DNA of 63,863 bases, counting the filler. It is 6 parts of 6 records of this genome, joined end to end, with 100 filler letters (N's around TTAATTAATTAA, not from the genome) between each part and the next. Parts side by side here need not be neighbours in the genome. Positions count along the whole stretch, not along the records: positions 53,368 to 58,761 come from DRR378314_1561; 5 more parts are not named here. One strand, written 5' to 3'. Below are positions 24,081-61,793 of the stretch, piece after piece. Each line of letters begins with the position of its first letter. Position 1 is the first letter of the stretch. The notes beneath the pieces are model-generated. The model was not told the DNA's origin, made no database searches, and saw only the letters and a program-made list of their open reading frames with translations. A program made the translations under genes and the position numbers.

Positions 24081-24180
24081 NNNNNNNNNNNNNNNNNNNN
24101 NNNNNNNNNNNNNNNNNNNNNNNNTTAATTAATTAANNNNNNNNNNNNNNNNNNNNNNNNNNNNNNNNNNNNNNNNNNNN
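24081..24180. other. Artificial contig spacer
   Basis: N-run + TTAATTAATTAA (stops in all six frames) + N-run, 100 nt. Confidence 0.99.
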
Positions 24181-40029: not shown

Positions 40030-40129
40030 NNNNNNNNNNNNNNNNNNNNNNNNNNNNNNNNNNNNNNNNNNNNTTAATTAATTAANNNNNNNNNNNNNNN
40101 NNNNNNNNNNNNNNNNNNNNNNNNNNNNN
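40030..40129. other. Artificial contig spacer
   Basis: N-run + TTAATTAATTAA + N-run. Confidence 0.99.
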
Positions 40130-46706: not shown

Positions 46707-46806
46707 NNNNNNNNNNNNNNNNNNNNNNNNNNNNNNNNNNNNNNNNNNNNTTAATTAATTAANNNNNNNNNNNNNNNNNNNNNNNNNNNNNNNNNNNNNN
46801 NNNNNN
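46707..46806. other. Artificial contig spacer
   Basis: N-run + TTAATTAATTAA + N-run. Confidence 0.99.
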
Positions 46807-53267: not shown

Positions 53268-53367
53268 NNNNNNNNNNNNNNNNNNNNNNNNNNNNNNNNN
53301 NNNNNNNNNNNTTAATTAATTAANNNNNNNNNNNNNNNNNNNNNNNNNNNNNNNNNNNNNNNNNNNN
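53268..53367. other. Artificial contig spacer
   Basis: N-run + TTAATTAATTAA + N-run. Confidence 0.99.
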
Positions 53368-53795
53368 AACGCATCCGCTTGCGGGAAGCACAAAGTCTCG
53401 TACCATGTTCCGTCTGTCACGACACAGACGATTACGTAGCGGGTATTAGTAGCACCGCGTCATCAGTAATACTATCAGGAGAAGACAAATGGGTCATCAT
53501 AGAACGCGCGGGGTACAGGAAAGACAGTATCGGGAGCACTGTGTACGGCTGCTGCCCAAGTACCGCGCACAATTCCTCCGCGGCGGCGATCAGCTTGCAT
53601 GTGCAGAGACCGAGTACTCCGTACATCACCCATCGATCCACCACCAACTATACGACGGACGTATTCATTTACGACAATGTAACACTACGGTAGCGCTGCG
53701 GCGCATGAAGAACAGGTGTATGAGTCTTGATGAGTAGAAAAAAAAGTGTCGGAAGGGACGCTGGGGTGCAGCGCGATGCGCGCGGCTCGTCGTAC

Positions 53796-56700
53796 CGTTC
53801 GCGCGTACACGTCCGTGCGCCCCCGGTCCAACACCAACATACGCGCCGCCAGACCAAACGTGGAGATTATGACGCGATTCGTGACCAGGCGTAGCGAAGT
53901 TGGATACTTCATAATGCGATAATCCCGCAGCGGTCAGTGCTTCGATTGTGTCGAGATACATCCCGGCGAGATCGTTTTCTGTGGCGAGGAAGAAGACAAC
54001 AACACTGAGTACTTTGTGACAATCTCGTTGATCACCATTCTTATAGTTGCACTGCATTTTTCGCGGAACAAGTGCGGGGTTGGCAAGAGAGACGCGCAAG
54101 AGAGCTATCACAGTGCAGTTACGCCAGGGAAAGGGACAAGGGAGCAAGTCATCGGTTCCTCGCTCGTTCAAGCTCTGGATTCATCACTGTTTCCCTCGGC
54201 CGTTCCAAAGCGAATAAAAGACGGCTTTCTGGCGCGGCATACCTGGGGATATAGGCAGCGTATTTCGCTTCGCTTGGCGCCAAAGTGGTGTTCCGGGCTT
54301 GACGGTGAGCTGGTACAGCGACACGTGCCCAGCAGCGAACGCCAGGGCGGAAGCTTGCTCGAGCTCCGCTTTCCTACAGATGCAGCACATGCCCACGTGG
54401 CCATTTTGATGCGCAAAAAGGGTAATATGAATAATGCAAGATTGGATAGACAGTGATGGTCAAGCACGATGGGAGCAAGGCCGTGTGCTAAAGGAAGACA
54501 ATTTCTCGGTAAGCATTGCGGCAATGCGCATTGGGACACTTTCCGATCATAAGCTGAAATGATGTTACAGAAATAGAGAGGTACTTTCTAATACAGCCTT
54601 CTTGTGAATACGTTCTTTCGGAAGTGGGCCATGAAAAAGACGTGTCTGCATTTCGAAGAGGAGCAGATAGAAGCTGTGCGCTGCCAGCAGTGAGCCGTGT
54701 GTGCAAGGCCACCATCACACACCCGGAATTCCTGCCGTTCAGCGCGCGCAACGCACCATTCCGCTCGCGTCTGCGAAGGAAGTCCAAACATTAAGTCAAA
54801 GGATACTCGCGGAAAGGTATTTAGAGCGGTGCGGATCGCTCGCTCCGCGTCTGTAGCTGAGTGTTCCCGTCCGAGCTGCTTTAGATGTCGTGACACGAAC
54901 GACTGGGCTCCAATGCTCACCCGACTGACACCAAACGCTCGCCACTGCCGCGCGAAAGGCAGTGATAGAGCACGCAGGATGATGATGAGTAGCTTGAACG
55001 TACAAGAGTGCACGTTGCTGTGTACTGACGAGGTGCTCATGCGTGGAGATAACGGGAGTAATACGCCGTTAAGTCAACGGACGGGACATCTGCCCTCCTA
55101 TCCAGGAACACTACCAATGCTCTCACTCCCGTATTCAAAACAGCTCTACTTTGGGTGACAATATGATGTCAGCGACAAAAGAACACCGAATCCTGCAATG
55201 TGCGATCCTATATTTTGATGAATAGGAGATTTTGGCCATGACACTGTCCCGGAAATCACGCGTGTTGGGCATATGAGAAGCAATGCAGCGTACTGGACTC
55301 ACCTCCCGCATTCGCTCCGTTTCAGCGGAGGAGGGATTGCATTCGAGAGTTACTTCGCAATCGCTGTATTGCCATTGGCATCAGCGTACGTACAAAGTGA
55401 ATCAAAACCAGACACACAAGTACACATTCATTGATCAGGAAAGCATGTACGCACGGAAAGAGAGACAGAGAGCGTTATTCCATAGTTTCGCGTTCACCTA
55501 TTTCGTTATCGCGAATGCCCCATTGATTTCACGCTCTTCCCCACCAGGTTCTTCTTATTTTCCTCTACCAAACTCGCAATGGGGCACACAGGGCAAAATC
55601 GATTCACCCGGCGGAAAAGTGCAAAGCACACTGCAATGGTTCAGGCGCTTGCTTATACTTGGAGGGTGTTTCATCTCCTTAGTCTCCGTTCTGGTATGTG
55701 TGTCGCGCGCTCTGCTTCTGGTTCGCTTACCGGCTGATCGGCCACATCGCCGCCACGTGGTCGAGCACGCGCGCGAGGAACGACGGCGCAGCAAGCGATG
55801 GCGTTCCTCCGCCGAAGTACACCGAAGTAACCGGGACCTTCCCGGTAACATCGGCAGCGCGCGAGAGAGCGCGATGGTACACACGCAGCCATTCTTCTGC
55901 TCGATCGTGACTCACGGGAGCCCTTGGGTGCGACGCGCTGTACTTGGTGAAGTTGCAGTACGCGCAGAGCTTCGAGCAGAACGGGTAGTGAATGTAGACG
56001 CCGAGCTCTTCCGTGCTCGTCACGGAGCTTGCTGACGCTCCCAGAGCACGCTTTCTGGCCGGCGTATTTCGAAGAGACGGAGTAGTAGCTGTGTGGATCG
56101 GGGCACGCTGGACACGCGCGAGCGTCCTCTCCAGCGCCTGCCGATATCGAAGCGGGTGCGCGCGCAGATGGCCGACGTGTGGCGAGTGCGGCAGGGCGAG
56201 TCGCTCCGCTTTGAACCCGACCGCCGCGTCTTGCTCATCGACAAAGTGCTCGACCATGTGATCTGGAATGAGCTCATCATCCGGGCCGTAGATAAATAGG
56301 CGTGTTTGTGGCGCGTGCGATCGGAGGGAGGCGTGAGCGGTGTTGATCAGAGCGCGTCGTTCACGATCGCGGAGCACGCGCGCGAAGAACCGCTCCAGCG
56401 GCGGAGTCCACACCGGGTGCTCGTACAGCGCGTCTGCCCCGACGACCGGCTCGATACCAAGGCTTTTCTCCACACGCATACGCAGCCCGATTGCAGCGCC
56501 GGACATGGCAGACAAGTACCCTCGTGCGCATATTTCAGCGGTGATGAGCGAAGGCGCGGAATCGATCACCGCAGCTGACGTGGCCTGGTACGCAGAATTC
56601 CAGAGACCGTCTGCACCAGGGAGTAACGCGCACAAAGAAGCCACACAGGGAACGAGAAGATTGTGAGGGCAACACCTACTGCGCCAGTTTCCTTTGCACC

Positions 56701-57483
56701 CCTACTTTTGCACATTGCACGTATGTGCTATCCTTGAAAGAAGAAAGATGTCGGTTGCGTGATTGACAAGACGCAGTGGCAAGACAAAGGTGCTCGGGAG
56801 CTGCGCTGCTCTATGCGCGGAGCGCTGGCAGGTACGCAGCGAAGGCGAGCAAACGCGTGCCGCAGAGGAAGTACGCAACAACGGGACATTGTTTCCAGTC
56901 GTAGAGCAATCACAAACCAATACATACGACTGGCATACGCGTACCACGGTTCCTCTGTGAGAGCAAGTGGCCGAAGAAGTAGGCGCCGTTGTTGCTCATT
57001 GCGTGCACAACGAGGGGACGCTGGTTGACTCCGGCAGCCGACAACGCGTCGCTCAGCGCCTCCACGTGTCCATCAAGCGTGCGAGGACGGAAAAGAAAAG
57101 ACATGGGCGGTGTAAAGGCTACCACATCTGCTCCCAGCGAGTGGTACACTTCGATGTACTTGCACACATGCCGAGGCTGCGCACCCAGCCATCCCAAAAG
57201 GCAAACAAGCTCACCTGCAGCCGGGCGGCCGTCGAGAACAGCGAGCGCACATGGAGCACCGTGAGAGTCGCGGAAGAAGAAAACGGAGTAGCGCACACGC
57301 CGAAGGCAGCACAAAGGCATCACCGCTTCCAACGCAACGACAACAAGGAAATATGCACCGACTAGCGGTGCCCAAACCCCACGGAAAGCGTGCCATTACG
57401 AACGATACCCCCTTGATCCAAAGGCAGGACATACCTCTGGAGCGCGTGGTGGCGCGGAACAGGCGCGGCGTTGCAAGTGACAT
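53796..57483 (-). CDS. Fusion: DUF829/TMEM53-like alpha/beta hydrolase + HemW/RSAD1 radical SAM protein, spliced, 3' partial
   Basis: Exons at about 57483-57435, 57214-56945, 56610-55731, 55363-55303, 54944-54757, 54373-54243 and 53978-53796. DUF829 motifs: LLGWLGA, HAMSNNG, IDSAP, DELIP, SPHVGH. HemW motifs: YIHYPFCSKLCAYCNF, GGGTPS, TLECNP, RVSIGAQSF, DLMFGLP, SLYQLT, YEVSNF. Confidence 0.85.
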
Positions 57484-58025
57484 CCGAGAAGGCCCGCCCG
57501 CAGGTCCCGAACGCAGGGCGAAGTATCGGAACACAATGCACACAGATGCAGCGTCACAATTACGAAGAAGCCATGCGGCGAAGATAACAGCAACAACGAG
57601 ATGGACCAAGCGTGGCCGAGGAGCGCAGGGACCTGGCGACGGCGCGCAAGCGACCCCTTCGCCGCGCTCGCTCGGCGCCTGTGCAGCGCTTGCTGCTGCG
57701 GCGGCGAGAAATCGAGGATTCTCGAGCAGTCGTATTTCGAAGGTACGCGAAGCTCCGGGACGACCGAAGCGACGACGCCGTCGCTGGTGGCTGCGCGCTG
57801 CGCCTCGGCACGAGCTCCTTTTCTGCTGGCGGCGCCGCACACTTGCAGGCCGATAAGCGTTATCCGGGTTTCCGGTTCTCTTCGTCACATCTACGCGTTT
57901 TTATCAGACCTACTCTTGCTTCGCGAGAGTGGCTTTGTACAACGGTGCTGTTTCGTTCGCTTCCAACCCGTGCGCGCGTGCTCACGTCCTCGCTCACCGC
58001 TGCTGCTCGCGTGCTCGCTGCTCCC

Positions 58026-58697
58026 ATGACGACCCGCCACGTCCAACCCCTCGACCCCGTCCCGCGGGACATTGATATCGCCCAAGCAGCGACACCGGTG
58101 CCCATTGCCGAGATCGCAAAGGCGGCCGGTATCCTGGATGAAGAACTGGAGTTGTACGGAAAGTACAAGGCCAAAGTGACGCTTGACGTGCGGAAACGGC
58201 TCGCCGATGTCCAGGACGCGCACTACGTTGTGGTCGCAGGGATCACGCCTACGCCGCTGGGCGAGGGCAAGTCCACGACGACAATCGGCCTTGCGCAGGC
58301 GCTCGGCGCGCATCTCAACCAAAAATGTTTTGCATGCATTCGCCAGCCCTCCCAAGGACCTACTTTTGGAATCAAGGGCGGCGCGGCTGGCGGTGGATAC
58401 AGCCAGTGCATTCCGATGGAAGAGTTCAACTTGCACCTCACCGGTACGCGCACGTGCTCCGTCTGCTGTGCTCGCGTGAGCGTGTCCAGTGCTGGCTTGG
58501 TCTACTCACAATTCGCTGCAGCTAACCGCTTTACTTTTGTGGTTTGATTAATATGTGTTTCTAGGAGATATCCATGCGGTAACAGCCGCGAACAATCTTC
58601 TGGCGGCCGCAATCGATACGCGCATGTTCCACGAGTCGACGCAGAGCGACGAGGCGCTGTTCAACCGCATCTGCCCAGCGGCGCAGGACGGCTCGCG
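58026..58697 (+). CDS. Formate-tetrahydrofolate ligase (stand-alone FTHFS), spliced, 3' partial
   Basis: Exons 58026-58443 and 58565-58697; [35 protein letters not shown] and [17 protein letters not shown]. Confidence 0.95.
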
Positions 58698-58761
58698 GTG
58701 CGCTCTCATCCGCTCTCCAACCGCCACGCGCTCCACGAGCGCCCGTTTCCTTGCACCGCAC

Positions 58762-58861
58762 NNNNNNNNNNNNNNNNNNNNNNNNNNNNNNNNNNNNNNN
58801 NNNNNTTAATTAATTAANNNNNNNNNNNNNNNNNNNNNNNNNNNNNNNNNNNNNNNNNNNN
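58762..58861. other. Artificial contig spacer
   Basis: N-run + TTAATTAATTAA + N-run. Confidence 0.99.
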
Positions 58862-58901: not shown

Positions 58902-61793
58902 TTACGCGCCGAGCTTCTCCGCTGCGAAAGCAGCGGCAGTAGCGCGTGCCTCGTCAACCTTGCTCGCGTCGGGGCCCTGGCCCTGCGCGCTCGCGGGCTT
59001 TCCGCCGCCCTTGCCTCCGACGACGGCAAGGGCAACGCGAAGCCATTCGGATGCCGTCAGACCCGCGTCAATATGTGCCTGGACACTCGAGGCGTAAGCG
59101 AACGCCTTGCTACCGGCCTTGTCGGTGGCAAGAAGCAGCGCGCTGACGGACGGCACCTTTTTCGAAGCAGCGGTGACAGCGCTCTTGAGGACTTTGATGT
59201 CCCAGCCGGCCTGCACAACTTCGACGAGCGTCTTTGCGCCGCGTTCTTCGGCTGCTTGGAACATCTGCAAGATATGCGCCTCTGCCTCCTTCTTGACGAG
59301 CGCCTCTGCATCTTTCTTCAACTTGAGCGCCTTCTCCTTGAGCTCGTCGATCTGCTTGCGAATGCGCTGCCTGTGAGAGGCGGGCATCACGATTCCTTCA
59401 AGCTCGTTCCGGAAATCCGTCACAGCAGCCTCGATGACTTCATGATCGCTGGAAGTGCATCCACGCACGCGCGCCTCGAACACCGTCGCGTTTTCAATGG
59501 CCTGCAGCGCAGGATCTCCCGTCACACACACGACGCGGCGCACTCCCTTGGCGATGCCTTCTTCCGACACAATCGCAAACGCCTTGGCACTCCGCGTGTT
59601 GCTGATGTGAGTGCCTCCGCAGAGCTCCACAGAAACCTCGTGCCACTTCTCATTCGCGGGATCGGCGAGAATATCCGATACGCGGGCGCCAATGCAAACT
59701 ACACGCACGGGATCGGGATACACTTCTCCGAAAACGGCGCGCAACGACGAAATCTGCTTGGCGTCCGCAAGCGGAACAACTGCACTGTCGATACCGAGCT
59801 CACGCTCGATATCGCCCTGCACAATCTCCTCGGCCTGGGCGAGCTGCTCGCCCGTCATCGGCTTGTTATGGTTGAAATCAAAGCGGAACCGATCTTCCTG
59901 CACATGCGAACCCTTTTGATCTTCCTGAGGACCGAGAACTTTGCGAAGGGCAAAGTTCAGCGAATGCGTCATCGTGTGATTCGGAGCCACGAGCTCGCGC
60001 CGGCGATAGTCCACATCTGCTGTCACAGACGACCCTCTTGCGAGCGAGCCGCTGTCGAGTGTGCCGATGTGGCACACATATCCAGCGTACACCTGCGTAT
60101 CTGACACGGTGAACGCGACCGCACCGTCTTCAGCAGTGAGACGGCCCGAGTCGCCCACTTGGCCACCTTGCTCGGCATAGAAGGGTGTCTTGTCCAACAC
60201 AATCGACACCATGTCCTCGCCCGCAGGCAGCTTGTCGACAAACCCATTCTCCGTGTAGATCGCGCAGATCTTCGCATCGACGCTCTGATACCACGTGAAC
60301 TTCGGCTCGTCGTCGGTGGGCGCCAGCGCGAGAGTCTCGCGCAGGTGAACAGTCTGCTCCGCTTCCATGACCAGCCCCTTGGAGTGGGCTTTGGACGCGG
60401 CTGCACGCGAGCGCTCCTTTGACGCCTCCATCTCCTTGTAGTATCCGACGGAATCAACGGACATGCCGCTTTCCTCCGCCATGATTTCCGTGAGGTCAAC
60501 AGGGAAGCCAAACGTGTCGTACAAGCGGAAAGCATCTTTCCCCGTCACAACCGTTTCCCCAGCGGCAGTTGCGGCGGCGGCGATCTTGCGGAACTCCGCC
60601 AAGCCCTTGTCAAGCGTGCGCGCAAACGACTCTTCTTCGTCGAGCAGGACAGCGTGGACGTGGTTGCGTTTCGTGCGGATTTCGGGGAACGCGTCGCCCA
60701 ACGTCGTGCACACGACATCCACCAGCTTTGCGAAGAATCCCAGCTCCGCGTTGAGGAACTGGCGCCCGTAGCGAACAGCGCGGCGGAGAATACGGCGCAA
60801 AACATAGCCGCGGCCTTCGCTGCTCGGCACAAGACCGTCGGCGATGGCAACGCTCAAGTTGCGGATATGGTCGGCAATGACGCGGTACGCCATGTCCACG
60901 CCATCTGCGTCGTCCGCGCCCACTTTTCCCGTATACGCACGCGCGCCCGTAACGCGCTGGATTTCGGCAAAGATGGGCGTGAAAATATCCGTGTCGTAAT
61001 TACTGCGCTTGTCCTGCAGAATCGACGTAATGCGCTCGAATCCCATGCCGGTATCAATGTTCTTGGCCGGCAGCGGCCGAAGCGAGCGATCCGGCTCGCG
61101 ACTCATTTGCATGAACACCAGGTTCCAGATTTCGAGCACGTCCGGGTCGTCCATATTTACCAGGCTCGCTGCATTCCGCCCGCCAATGCGATCATAGTGG
61201 ATCTCAGAGCACGGCCCGCACGGCCCTACCTCGCCCATCTCCCAGAAGTTGTCCTTCGCGCTGCCGGGGAGAATGTGGTCGTCCGGCAGGTACTTCTGCC
61301 AGAGCGCCTTGGCCTCCAAATCCGGCTCCAGGCCTTGCTGCTCGTCGCCGCCAAAGTACGTCGCGTAGAGACGGTCCTTCTCGATTCCGTACACTTCCGT
61401 CAGAAGTTCCCATGCCCACGAAATTGCCTCCTGCTTGAAGTAGTCGCCAAACGACCAGTTGCCAAGCATCTCGAAGAACGTGTGGTGGTACACGTCCTTG
61501 CCAACATCGTCAAGGTCGTTGTGCTTTCCACCTGCGCGGATGCACTTCTGGCTGTTCGCCGCACGCTTCAGACGACCAAACTCGCTATTCGGATCGACTT
61601 GGCCAAGGAAGATCGGCTTGAACTGGCACATGCCGGAATTGATGAACAACAGTGTTGGATCCTCATAGGGCACAACTTTGCTCGACGGCACCGCCGTGTG
61701 GCCACGCGCGGTAAAGAAGTCGACAAAAGCCTGCCGCACACGTGCGCCCGACCACGCAAGCTGCGCGCCCTGCTCCTGCTGTTCGTCGCTCAT
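58902..61793 (-). CDS. AARS: Alanyl-tRNA synthetase, eukaryotic cytosolic type
   Basis: DPTLLFINSGM, NSQKCIRAGGKHNDLDDVGKDVYHHTFFEMLGNWSFGDYFK, editing motifs NHTMTH and ELCGGTH, and C-terminal GGKGGG. ATG 61793 (MSDEQQ). Confidence 0.97.
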   Translation of the reverse strand: MSDEQQEQGAQLAWSGARVRQAFVDFFTARGHTAVPSSKVVPYEDPTLLFINSGMCQFKPIFLGQVDPNSEFGRLKRAANSQKCIRAGGKHNDLDDVGKDVYHHTFFEMLGNWSFGDYFKQEAISWAWELLTEVYGIEKDRLYATYFGGDEQQGLEPDLEAKALWQKYLPDDHILPGSAKDNFWEMGEVGPCGPCSEIHYDRIGGRNAASLVNMDDPDVLEIWNLVFMQMSREPDRSLRPLPAKNIDTGMGFERITSILQDKRSNYDTDIFTPIFAEIQRVTGARAYTGKVGADDADGVDMAYRVIADHIRNLSVAIADGLVPSSEGRGYVLRRILRRAVRYGRQFLNAELGFFAKLVDVVCTTLGDAFPEIRTKRNHVHAVLLDEEESFARTLDKGLAEFRKIAAAATAAGETVVTGKDAFRLYDTFGFPVDLTEIMAEESGMSVDSVGYYKEMEASKERSRAAASKAHSKGLVMEAEQTVHLRETLALAPTDDEPKFTWYQSVDAKICAIYTENGFVDKLPAGEDMVSIVLDKTPFYAEQGGQVGDSGRLTAEDGAVAFTVSDTQVYAGYVCHIGTLDSGSLARGSSVTADVDYRRRELVAPNHTMTHSLNFALRKVLGPQEDQKGSHVQEDRFRFDFNHNKPMTGEQLAQAEEIVQGDIERELGIDSAVVPLADAKQISSLRAVFGEVYPDPVRVVCIGARVSDILADPANEKWHEVSVELCGGTHISNTRSAKAFAIVSEEGIAKGVRRVVCVTGDPALQAIENATVFEARVRGCTSSDHEVIEAAVTDFRNELEGIVMPASHRQRIRKQIDELKEKALKLKKDAEALVKKEAEAHILQMFQAAEERGAKTLVEVVQAGWDIKVLKSAVTAASKKVPSVSALLLATDKAGSKAFAYASSVQAHIDAGLTASEWLRVALAVVGGKGGGKPASAQGQGPDASKVDEARATAAAFAAEKLGA

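What the first reader, a model, noticed from the sequence alone, without database searches (positions are those of the whole stretch)
53796..57483. DUF829/TMEM53 hydrolase fused in frame to HemW/RSAD1 radical SAM heme chaperone
Seen: one 880-nt exon (56610-55731) runs from the DUF829 C-terminus through the linker ARVQRAPIHTATTPSLRNTPARKRALGASASSVTSTEE into YIHYPFCxxxCxxC, with no stop and no Met between them. The putative Ser-Asp-His triad (HAMSNNG, DELIP, SPHVGH) and the radical SAM cysteines are intact. Exon 1 (MSLATPRLFRATTRSRG) looks like a mitochondrial presequence. Known: both families are normally stand-alone, and DUF829 biochemistry is unclear. Inference: either a Rosetta-stone link between DUF829 and mitochondrial heme handling, or a polyprotein cleaved at the Arg-rich, presequence-like linker. 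I know of no described case of this fusion.
Basis: partly seen in the sequence, partly recalled or inferred. Interest (0 to 1): 0.75.

Follow-up and report, generated by a model that had tools for sequence, protein, structure and literature searches.

The report
DUF829 hydrolase–RSAD1 mitochondrial tandem gene

Summary
The fusion is in the DNA. Minus-strand exon 3 (56610-55731, 880 nt) reads from the DUF829 C-terminus through a 40-residue linker into a HemW/RSAD1 domain, with no stop, no Met and no consensus splice donor in the linker. An eight-exon GT-AG model gives 602 stop-free residues; the last ~110 are off the contig. Contigs of one probable RNA run confirm introns 1 and 2 and cover linker-to-radical-SAM, but leave 56080-56193 unbridged and read through intron 3. 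No second DUF829-RSAD1 fusion was found (0 of 12 eukaryote-type RSAD1 loci, 0 of 49 long homologues), but these searches were weak at the expected length, so the Rosetta-stone reading has no support. Best reading (0.45): a composite mitochondrial precursor like Arg5,6 or Rsm22-Cox11, in which RSAD1's old presequence became the linker and is cut by MPP. The linker and N-terminus are the two presequence-like peaks of the protein, but translated non-coding DNA of this organism often scores as high, so this is weak evidence. Rivals: uncleaved fusion (0.25), separately started or spliced RSAD1 (0.2), sequence error (0.1). The scan had not noted this on other DNA.

The parts
57484..57557 (-). 5' untranslated stretch carried by the spliced contig
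   Evidence: X1 record 5 runs from 57557; 57483 is the first in-frame ATG
57435..57483 (-). Exon 1: 16 residues, 4 Arg, no acidic residue; candidate short mitochondrial presequence
   Evidence: splice confirmed; targeting inferred, weak
57215..57434 (-). Intron 1 (220 nt, GT-AG)
   Evidence: predicted; skip of 220 in X1
56945..57214 (-). Exon 2: DUF829 N-terminal half; putative nucleophile S90 at 56996-56994 (HAMSNNG)
   Evidence: Pfam PF05705 2-100, E 1.4e-19; motif
56611..56944 (-). Intron 2 (334 nt, GT-AG)
   Evidence: predicted; skip of 334 in X1
55731..56610 (-). Exon 3 (880 nt): DUF829 C-terminal half, linker and start of the radical SAM domain in one frame
56123..56610 (-). DUF829 lid region and C-terminal half; putative D218 (56278-56276) and H251 (56179-56177); no strongly hydrophobic segment (best 19-residue Kyte-Doolittle mean 1.08)
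   Evidence: Pfam 170-241
56003..56122 (-). Linker, residues 270-309; residues 268-306 hold 6 R, 1 K, 19 S/T/A and no D/E; candidate MPP site R294-A295/L296 near 56047
   Evidence: the cleavage motif is recalled knowledge, not a tool result
56080..56193 (.). Stretch not covered by any RNA-like contig; holds the putative catalytic His and the first third of the linker
55955..55978 (-). CxxxCxxC (C318, C322, C325), followed by the eukaryote-type YCNFxKY context
55799..55813 (-). GGGTP SAM-binding loop
   Evidence: motif defined in PMC13495026
55364..55730 (-). Intron 3 (367 nt); read through unspliced in X1; retention puts a TAA right after the donor and ends the protein at 400 residues
   Evidence: X1 records 3 and 2
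55303..55363 (-). Exon 4 (61 nt)
   Evidence: GT-AG and frame; continuous match to a HemW profile; no RNA cover
54757..54944 (-). Exon 5 (188 nt)
   Evidence: Pfam Radical_SAM 94-159; X1 record 1 stops at the predicted donor with 7 unaligned letters
54243..54373 (-). Exon 6 (131 nt)
   Evidence: NCBIfam PRK06582 181-216
53796..53978 (-). Exon 7 (183 nt); HNxxVW at 53871-53854
   Evidence: NCBIfam hemN_rel 206-269
53368..53413 (-). Start of exon 8, cut by the contig end; the rest of RSAD1 (about 110 residues with the HemN_C domain) is missing
   Evidence: inferred from homologue tails and frame; spacer at 53268-53367

Best explanation
One nuclear gene makes one precursor of about 700-730 residues: short presequence, soluble DUF829 alpha/beta-hydrolase, linker, RSAD1 (HemW-type haem-binding radical SAM protein). 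It arose when a DUF829 gene became joined in frame to the downstream RSAD1 gene, so that RSAD1's old presequence became the linker. The N-terminal signal takes the chain into the mitochondrial matrix, where MPP removes it and also cuts at the linker (best candidate R294-A295/L296), releasing two independent proteins. The fusion then shares targeting and expression; it does not imply a shared pathway. Shown: the frame, both domains, introns 1-2, eukaryote-type RSAD1. Inferred: one transcript across the join, import, cleavage, origin.
For: No stop, ATG or consensus donor in the linker. Exons 3-8 give a continuous 374-bit match to a HemW profile, so the RSAD1 half is intact and needs a start, and the only ATG that gives a sensible protein is in exon 1. 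The linker is exon-like: GC 0.62 against 0.48-0.58 in introns; 8 of 1468 intron windows reach its codon score, while 59 of 221 windows of the gene's own domains score at or below it. The RSAD1 half falls in the eukaryotic group (80/95), sister to a Monosiga protein named 'mitochondrial' (95/89). The 45 residues from the DUF829 end to HxPxC sit where homologues have their N-terminal extension (8-89 residues in 34 sequences). The two highest presequence-like peaks are the linker (5.0) and the N-terminus (4.2), reached by 2 and 10 of 6838 mature-domain windows. X1 record 4 joins linker and radical SAM with no differences. Composite precursors cut by MPP at presequence-like junctions are known in fungi and plants (PMC8734313).
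Against: No contig bridges 56080-56193, and X1 reads through intron 3. The composition score does not separate a presequence from translated non-coding DNA: 59 of 819 intron windows, 61 of 355 exon-3 off-frame windows and 356 of 1077 AlaRS off-frame windows reach 5.0. The linker's -1 frame scores about as well on codon use (-0.07 against -0.06), and the intron background was trained on the same introns. The N-terminal signal is only 16-17 residues with a moderate hydrophobic moment (0.30-0.38), while internal MPP cleavage needs a strong N-terminal presequence (PMC8734313). Human TMEM53 is listed as a nuclear-envelope protein (PMC11878206 Table S1), and the Arabidopsis HemW-like protein gave mainly chloroplast signal (PMC11834973). 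No relative with the fusion was found.
Confidence: 0.45

Rival explanations
1. Stable two-domain protein. The fused mRNA is real but the chain stays whole; the linker is a flexible tether made from RSAD1's old N-terminus or from former non-coding DNA. The domains may be mere passengers, or (less likely) the hydrolase may act in haem or lipid handling beside RSAD1.
For: The same frame evidence as the best explanation. The linker's composition is what GC-rich read-through DNA gives by chance. RSAD1 tolerates N-terminal extensions of up to 89 residues.
Against: A basic, acid-free 39-residue stretch with R-2-type sites would be exposed to MPP during import (inference from PMC8734313). No recurrence supports a functional coupling.
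Confidence: 0.25
2. Two products from overlapping transcripts. DUF829 is made from a transcript that retains intron 3 (400 residues with a radical SAM stub), and RSAD1 from a second transcript: either exon 1 spliced to a same-phase AG in the linker (56088 or 56031), as rice RPS14 shares a presequence exon (recalled), or a start site in the linker with a non-AUG codon (CTG 56134, ACG 56125, ATC 56098).
For: The contig gap at 56080-56193 and the unspliced cover of intron 3 fit this pattern. Exon 1 ends in phase 1, and 56088 and 56031 are phase-1 YAG sites. Near-cognate codons precede 25-residue windows scoring 3.1-4.7. The neighbouring FTHFS gene has a transcribed, ATG-free, in-frame extension that could use such a start.
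Against: No contig shows an exon 1-to-linker joint; record 4 begins at 56079, not at an acceptor. The candidate acceptors have T fractions of 0.11-0.14 against 0.20-0.37 for the 7 modelled ones. At depths of 3-6, gaps are expected, and exons 4, 6 and 7 are also uncovered. The intron cover may be pre-mRNA or DNA, since X1's RNA nature is a guess. The FTHFS signal is itself within the non-coding null (48 of 629 windows).
Confidence: 0.2
3. Sequence error or a strain-level accident: a stop or start hidden by a wrong base in the one unverified stretch makes two tandem genes look fused.
For: One assembly only, a 5.4-kb contig in a concatenation of mixed contigs; 56080-56193 has no independent cover.
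Against: Two errors would be needed (a DUF829 stop and an RSAD1 ATG) within the ~45 nt between the DUF829 end (56123) and record 4 (56079), leaving no room for UTRs or a promoter. X1 differs at 4 listed places in exons 1-3, all substitutions, with no indel listed.
Confidence: 0.1

Closest known systems
Mitochondrial composite (tandem) precursors: Arg5,6 and Atp25 of S. cerevisiae; Rsm22-Cox11, Etp1 and SPAC22A12.08c of S. pombe; RPS14 of rice (PMC8734313, passages and Discussion read; PMC8847149, passages)
   Same: One frame with an N-terminal presequence-like stretch, two normally separate proteins, and a basic presequence-like junction.
   Different: A new pairing, in a protist rather than a fungus or plant; cleavage not shown; no conservation shown; the N-terminal signal is short.
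RSAD1 / HemW haem-binding radical SAM proteins (TIGR00539 hemN_rel; closest named row Monosiga XP_001747920.1)
   Same: CxxxCxxC, GGGTP, HNxx(Y/V)W; 42-48% identity to the best homologues; inside the eukaryotic group of the tree.
   Different: Preceded by a whole DUF829 domain instead of a start Met; Val for Tyr in the HemW motif; C-terminal haem-binding domain not on the contig.
DUF829 / TMEM53 (PF05705; MEROPS S09.A57; PMC11878206, passages and Table S1 row)
   Same: Both ends of the Pfam model match; Ser, Asp and His occur in the family's order.
   Different: No strongly hydrophobic segment, a basic N-terminus, and a C-terminal fusion; human TMEM53 is a nuclear-envelope protein.

Membership tests
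DUF829/TMEM53 (PF05705) | Pfam score above the curated cut-off (25 bits) | tested here: met
   71.3 bits (exon 2 frame) and 42.3 bits (exon 3 frame)
DUF829/TMEM53 (PF05705) | Ser-Asp-His catalytic residues | tested here: inconclusive
   The family is listed as S, D, H; S90, D218, H251 are present in order, but their assignment rests on recalled motifs and no usable model was obtained
DUF829/TMEM53 (PF05705) | Hydrophobic two-helix lid or membrane anchor as in human TMEM53 | tested here: not met
   Best 19-residue Kyte-Doolittle mean 1.08; a feature of the human member, not of the Pfam definition
HemW/RSAD1 | CX3CX2C and GGGTP, without the extra CX2C of HemN | tested here: met
   criteria from PMC13495026
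HemW/RSAD1 | (CX)HNX2YW motif | tested here: inconclusive
   Reads SRHNLHVW. Of 36 full-length homologues 28 have Y, 4 have T/C/H/I, 4 lack the motif, none has V; Ser two before HN is the commonest state (19 of 32)
HemW/RSAD1 | Placement with HemW/RSAD1 rather than HemN, HemZ or HutW | tested here: met
   hemN_rel or PRK06582 is best for 4 of 4 matching exon frames; 374 bits on a local profile; eukaryotic group 80/95, bootstrap not settled
HemW/RSAD1 | C-terminal auxiliary (HemN_C) haem-binding domain | not testable with these tools
   Off the contig end at 53368; no genome is held
HemW/RSAD1 | Haem binding and [4Fe-4S] cluster | not testable with these tools
   needs protein
MPP-processed composite precursor | One mRNA and one frame for both proteins | tested here: inconclusive
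   Frame met in DNA; RNA-like contigs leave 114 nt unbridged
MPP-processed composite precursor | Strong N-terminal presequence | tested here: inconclusive
   Composition score 4.2, above mature domains but reached by 136 of 819 intron windows; TargetP and MitoFates were not available
MPP-processed composite precursor | Internal presequence-like stretch with an R-2 site at the junction | tested here: inconclusive
   Highest peak of the protein lies at 268-292, but the score is not specific; the R-2 site is read by eye
MPP-processed composite precursor | Cleavage into two mature proteins in the matrix | not testable with these tools
   needs import assay or N-terminomics

The most novel reading that the evidence does not exclude
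The fusion is conserved across an under-sampled flagellate lineage and reflects a real functional link: a soluble, matrix-targeted TMEM53-family hydrolase made one-to-one with RSAD1 and working with it in mitochondrial haem or membrane-lipid handling. That would give the first biochemical handle on DUF829 and the first partner for RSAD1.
Probability: 0.08. Interest if true: 0.72.

Novelty: new member of a known kind. Interest (0 to 1): 0.4.

Why it matters
If the precursor is imported and cut, it extends MPP-tailored composite precursors, so far described from fungi and plants in the papers I read, to a protist lineage. It would also place a soluble member of the TMEM53/DUF829 family in mitochondria, giving a convenient enzyme for testing a family whose activity is only predicted. 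If the halves are functionally linked it would point to a partner for RSAD1, whose role in the cell is unsettled. As a single-genome case without recurrence it says little yet about function.

Tried and rejected
No whole genome is held, so I could not look for stand-alone DUF829 or RSAD1 copies. No holder on record as RNA was listed; X1 is an RNA guess. Uncovered parts (exons 4, 6, 7 and 56080-56193) are no evidence of silence. X2 (share 0.05) gave only short pieces and was not used. The 21-G loose end at 56194 is not a poly(A) tail; an mRNA ending there would lack a stop and the His, so I take it for a library artefact (inference). Exon-3 protein against 512-2000 aa proteins: 3 hits among 8000 candidates, none DUF829. 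Exon 2 against 157-2000 aa proteins: 0 of 246 candidates, not even stand-alone DUF829, so that search was blind. RSAD1 profile against 857-2445 aa proteins missed the expected ~720 aa. phmmer on representatives: the 150 best of 7406 hits all matched by the radical SAM part, which crowded out DUF829. DUF829 C-terminus plus linker in metagenome contigs: 0 of 577 pattern hits confirmed. Atlas: no usable hit for exon 3; DUF829 leads at 0.81-0.82 for exon 2. Single-sequence fold of exon 3: mean pLDDT 42, not used. PDB sequence search: only HemN 1olt and NocN 9p2u for exon 3, nothing for exon 2. The exon 7 donor at 53808 was dropped for 53795, which restores the homologue pattern. Donor-like GTATGC at 56481 is in phase with acceptor 56088, but record 5 reads through it. 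The composition score as proof of targeting was rejected after the non-coding control. The spliced full-length protein was examined only on the script machine, so it is not folded and not searched in the large collections.

Full report
Setting. The window is a chain of contigs joined by five 100-nt N spacers. The first 24 kb look bacterial (long intron-free frames; labels recalled) and the rest eukaryotic. The gene lies on a 5.4-kb contig, 53368-58761. No whole genome is held. Other notes on this data set speak of a flagellated protist with bacterial companions; I did not test that.

Gene anatomy. On the minus strand eight exons joined at GT-AG sites give 602 residues without a stop: 57483-57435, 57214-56945, 56610-55731, 55363-55303, 54944-54757, 54373-54243, 53978-53796, and 53413 to the contig end. 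Introns are 220-383 nt and all 8 of 8 donors examined (7 here, 1 in FTHFS) read GT[AG]NG. Pfam finds DUF829 positions 2-100 in exon 2 and 170-241 in exon 3, then Radical_SAM 1-61 in the same exon-3 frame. The radical SAM half matches a profile built from 36 full-length homologues without a break from position 6 to 291 of 397 (374 bits), so about 110 residues are missing and the whole would be about 700-730. NCBIfam ranks hemN_rel or PRK06582 first for 4 of 4 matching exon frames among 7 tested. In a 58-row tree the domain sits in a 15-row group holding the eukaryote-type sequences (80/95), sister to a Monosiga RSAD1 (95/89, a long branch; bootstrap not settled). CxxxCxxC and GGGTP are intact; the HemW motif has Val for Tyr, a position that also varies in 4 of 32 homologues with the motif. 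PMC13495026 (passages) places haem binding in the C-terminal domain, which is off the contig.

The junction. Between the DUF829 end (56123) and the radical SAM start (56002) lie 40 codons with no stop, no ATG in any frame and no consensus donor. An open 120-nt frame is common by itself (395 of 1468 intron windows; 32 of 1468 also lack ATG). The real point is that DUF829 has no stop before intron 3 and the intact RSAD1 has no ATG of its own. The linker has exon-like GC (0.62) and codon score (8 of 1468 intron windows reach it), but its -1 frame scores alike.

RNA evidence. One run, X1, guessed to be RNA, holds a third of the words. Its contigs splice introns 1 and 2 exactly as modelled and run from 57557 to 56194. 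A second contig covers 56079-55822, from inside the linker into the radical SAM domain, with no differences. Two more read through the intron 3 donor to 55444, and one covers exon 5 and stops at its donor with 7 unaligned letters, as a splice would give. Nothing covers 56080-56193, which holds the putative catalytic His. Depths are 3-6, so the gap proves nothing, but a single transcript is not shown either. Retaining intron 3 would end the protein at 400 residues. Four coding differences from the window are listed, two silent, plus L74V and C34R.

Recurrence. All 12 of 12 eukaryote-type RSAD1 loci found by pattern in metagenome contigs have an in-frame stop 22-65 codons before HxPxC, and 11 of 12 have an in-frame Met there. 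None of 61 upstream same-strand frames of 60 or more residues matches DUF829; only 7 of the 12 loci held 1 kb or more upstream, 2 gave no upstream frame, and some are near relatives. Among long homologues, 0 of 49 (857-2445 aa) list PF05705 (0 of 10 on rescan), 0 of 3 at 512-2000 aa, and 0 of 29 picked proteins (those 3 plus 26 of the 150 best representatives). RSAD1 does appear joined to other partners (MYCBPAP in birds, an RFWD3-like protein, Uso1), probably merged gene models (inference). These searches covered the expected length badly and could not find even stand-alone DUF829, so absence is weak.

Literature. Of 16 papers holding two or more of TMEM53, DUF829, RSAD1 and HemW, one mouse expression paper holds a term from each half, once each (listing only). 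Ten papers mention DUF829 (listing; one read in passages). Searches listed nothing on such a fusion. The library lacks most subscription papers and preprint supplements were closed, so 'not described' holds only for these searches. PMC11878206 (passages and Table S1 row) treats DUF829 as an S-D-H alpha/beta-hydrolase family, with TMEM53 at the nuclear envelope. PMC10114718 (passages) describes HemW and RSAD1 as haem-binding, chaperone-like proteins. PMC11834973 (passages) found the Arabidopsis homologue mainly in chloroplasts. PMC8734313 (passages and Discussion), PMC8847149 and PMC5063612 (passages) describe composite precursors cut by MPP at presequence-like junctions, which also need a strong N-terminal presequence.

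Targeting signals. A composition score trained on the N-termini of 20 RSAD1 homologues peaks at the linker (5.0) and the N-terminus (4.2); 2 and 10 of 6838 mature-domain windows reach these values. The control undercuts it: 59 of 819 intron windows, 61 of 355 exon-3 off-frame windows and 356 of 1077 AlaRS off-frame windows reach 5.0. The score thus shows that the linker is not folded-domain sequence, not that it is a signal. The better argument is position: the linker occupies the place and length (45 residues; homologues 8-89) of RSAD1's N-terminal extension. The DUF829 half lacks a strongly hydrophobic segment, which is compatible with matrix import.

Mechanism. Most likely a DUF829 gene and the RSAD1 gene behind it were joined in frame, the old RSAD1 presequence became the linker, and the precursor is imported and cut by MPP into two proteins (0.45). 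It may stay whole (0.25). RSAD1 may be made from its own transcript by a splice from exon 1 to a same-phase AG in the linker or by a non-AUG start (0.2); the RNA gap and intron 3 cover fit this, but no joint shows it and the candidate acceptors are T-poor. An error in the unverified 114 nt needs two changes and leaves no intergenic room (0.1).

Verdict. It is an undescribed pairing, seen in one genome, that most resembles known mitochondrial composite precursors; membership of that kind is not proven. There is no evidence for a functional link between DUF829 and haem handling. Interest 0.40.

Noticed in passing
window 57815-58025 (+): The FTHFS contig of X1 starts at 57815; from there to the first ATG (58026) the frame is open and has no ATG in any frame. 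ACG 57942, GTG 57945 and CTG 57948 precede an acid-free Arg/Ala/Ser/Thr/Leu stretch (score 5.4-5.8), which could be a non-AUG mitochondrial isoform; 48 of 629 nearby non-coding windows score as high.
   Followed up: partly
window 57483-58026: The fused gene and FTHFS are head to head, with ATGs 543 nt apart and contig 5' ends about 260 nt apart (57557 and 57815): a probable bidirectional promoter.
   Followed up: no
window 55364-55730: Intron 3 is the only intron of the gene covered by X1 contigs; retention or intronic polyadenylation would give DUF829 with a stub carrying CxxxCxxC.
   Followed up: partly
window 58905-61793 (-): An intron-free 963-codon frame that looks like alanyl-tRNA synthetase (label recalled) in an otherwise intron-rich genome.
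   Followed up: no
window 24081-24180, 40030-40129, 46707-46806, 53268-53367, 58762-58861: Five 100-nt spacers join unrelated contigs; 1-24080 looks bacterial, so neighbours across spacers are not synteny.
   Followed up: partly
P0032, P0065, P0089, P0103: HemW joined to a Ham1-family domain in four representatives, in line with the bacterial rdgB-hemW gene pair (recalled).
   Followed up: no
L005 and L012: Both loci have a protein kinase gene upstream of RSAD1 on the same strand.
   Followed up: no
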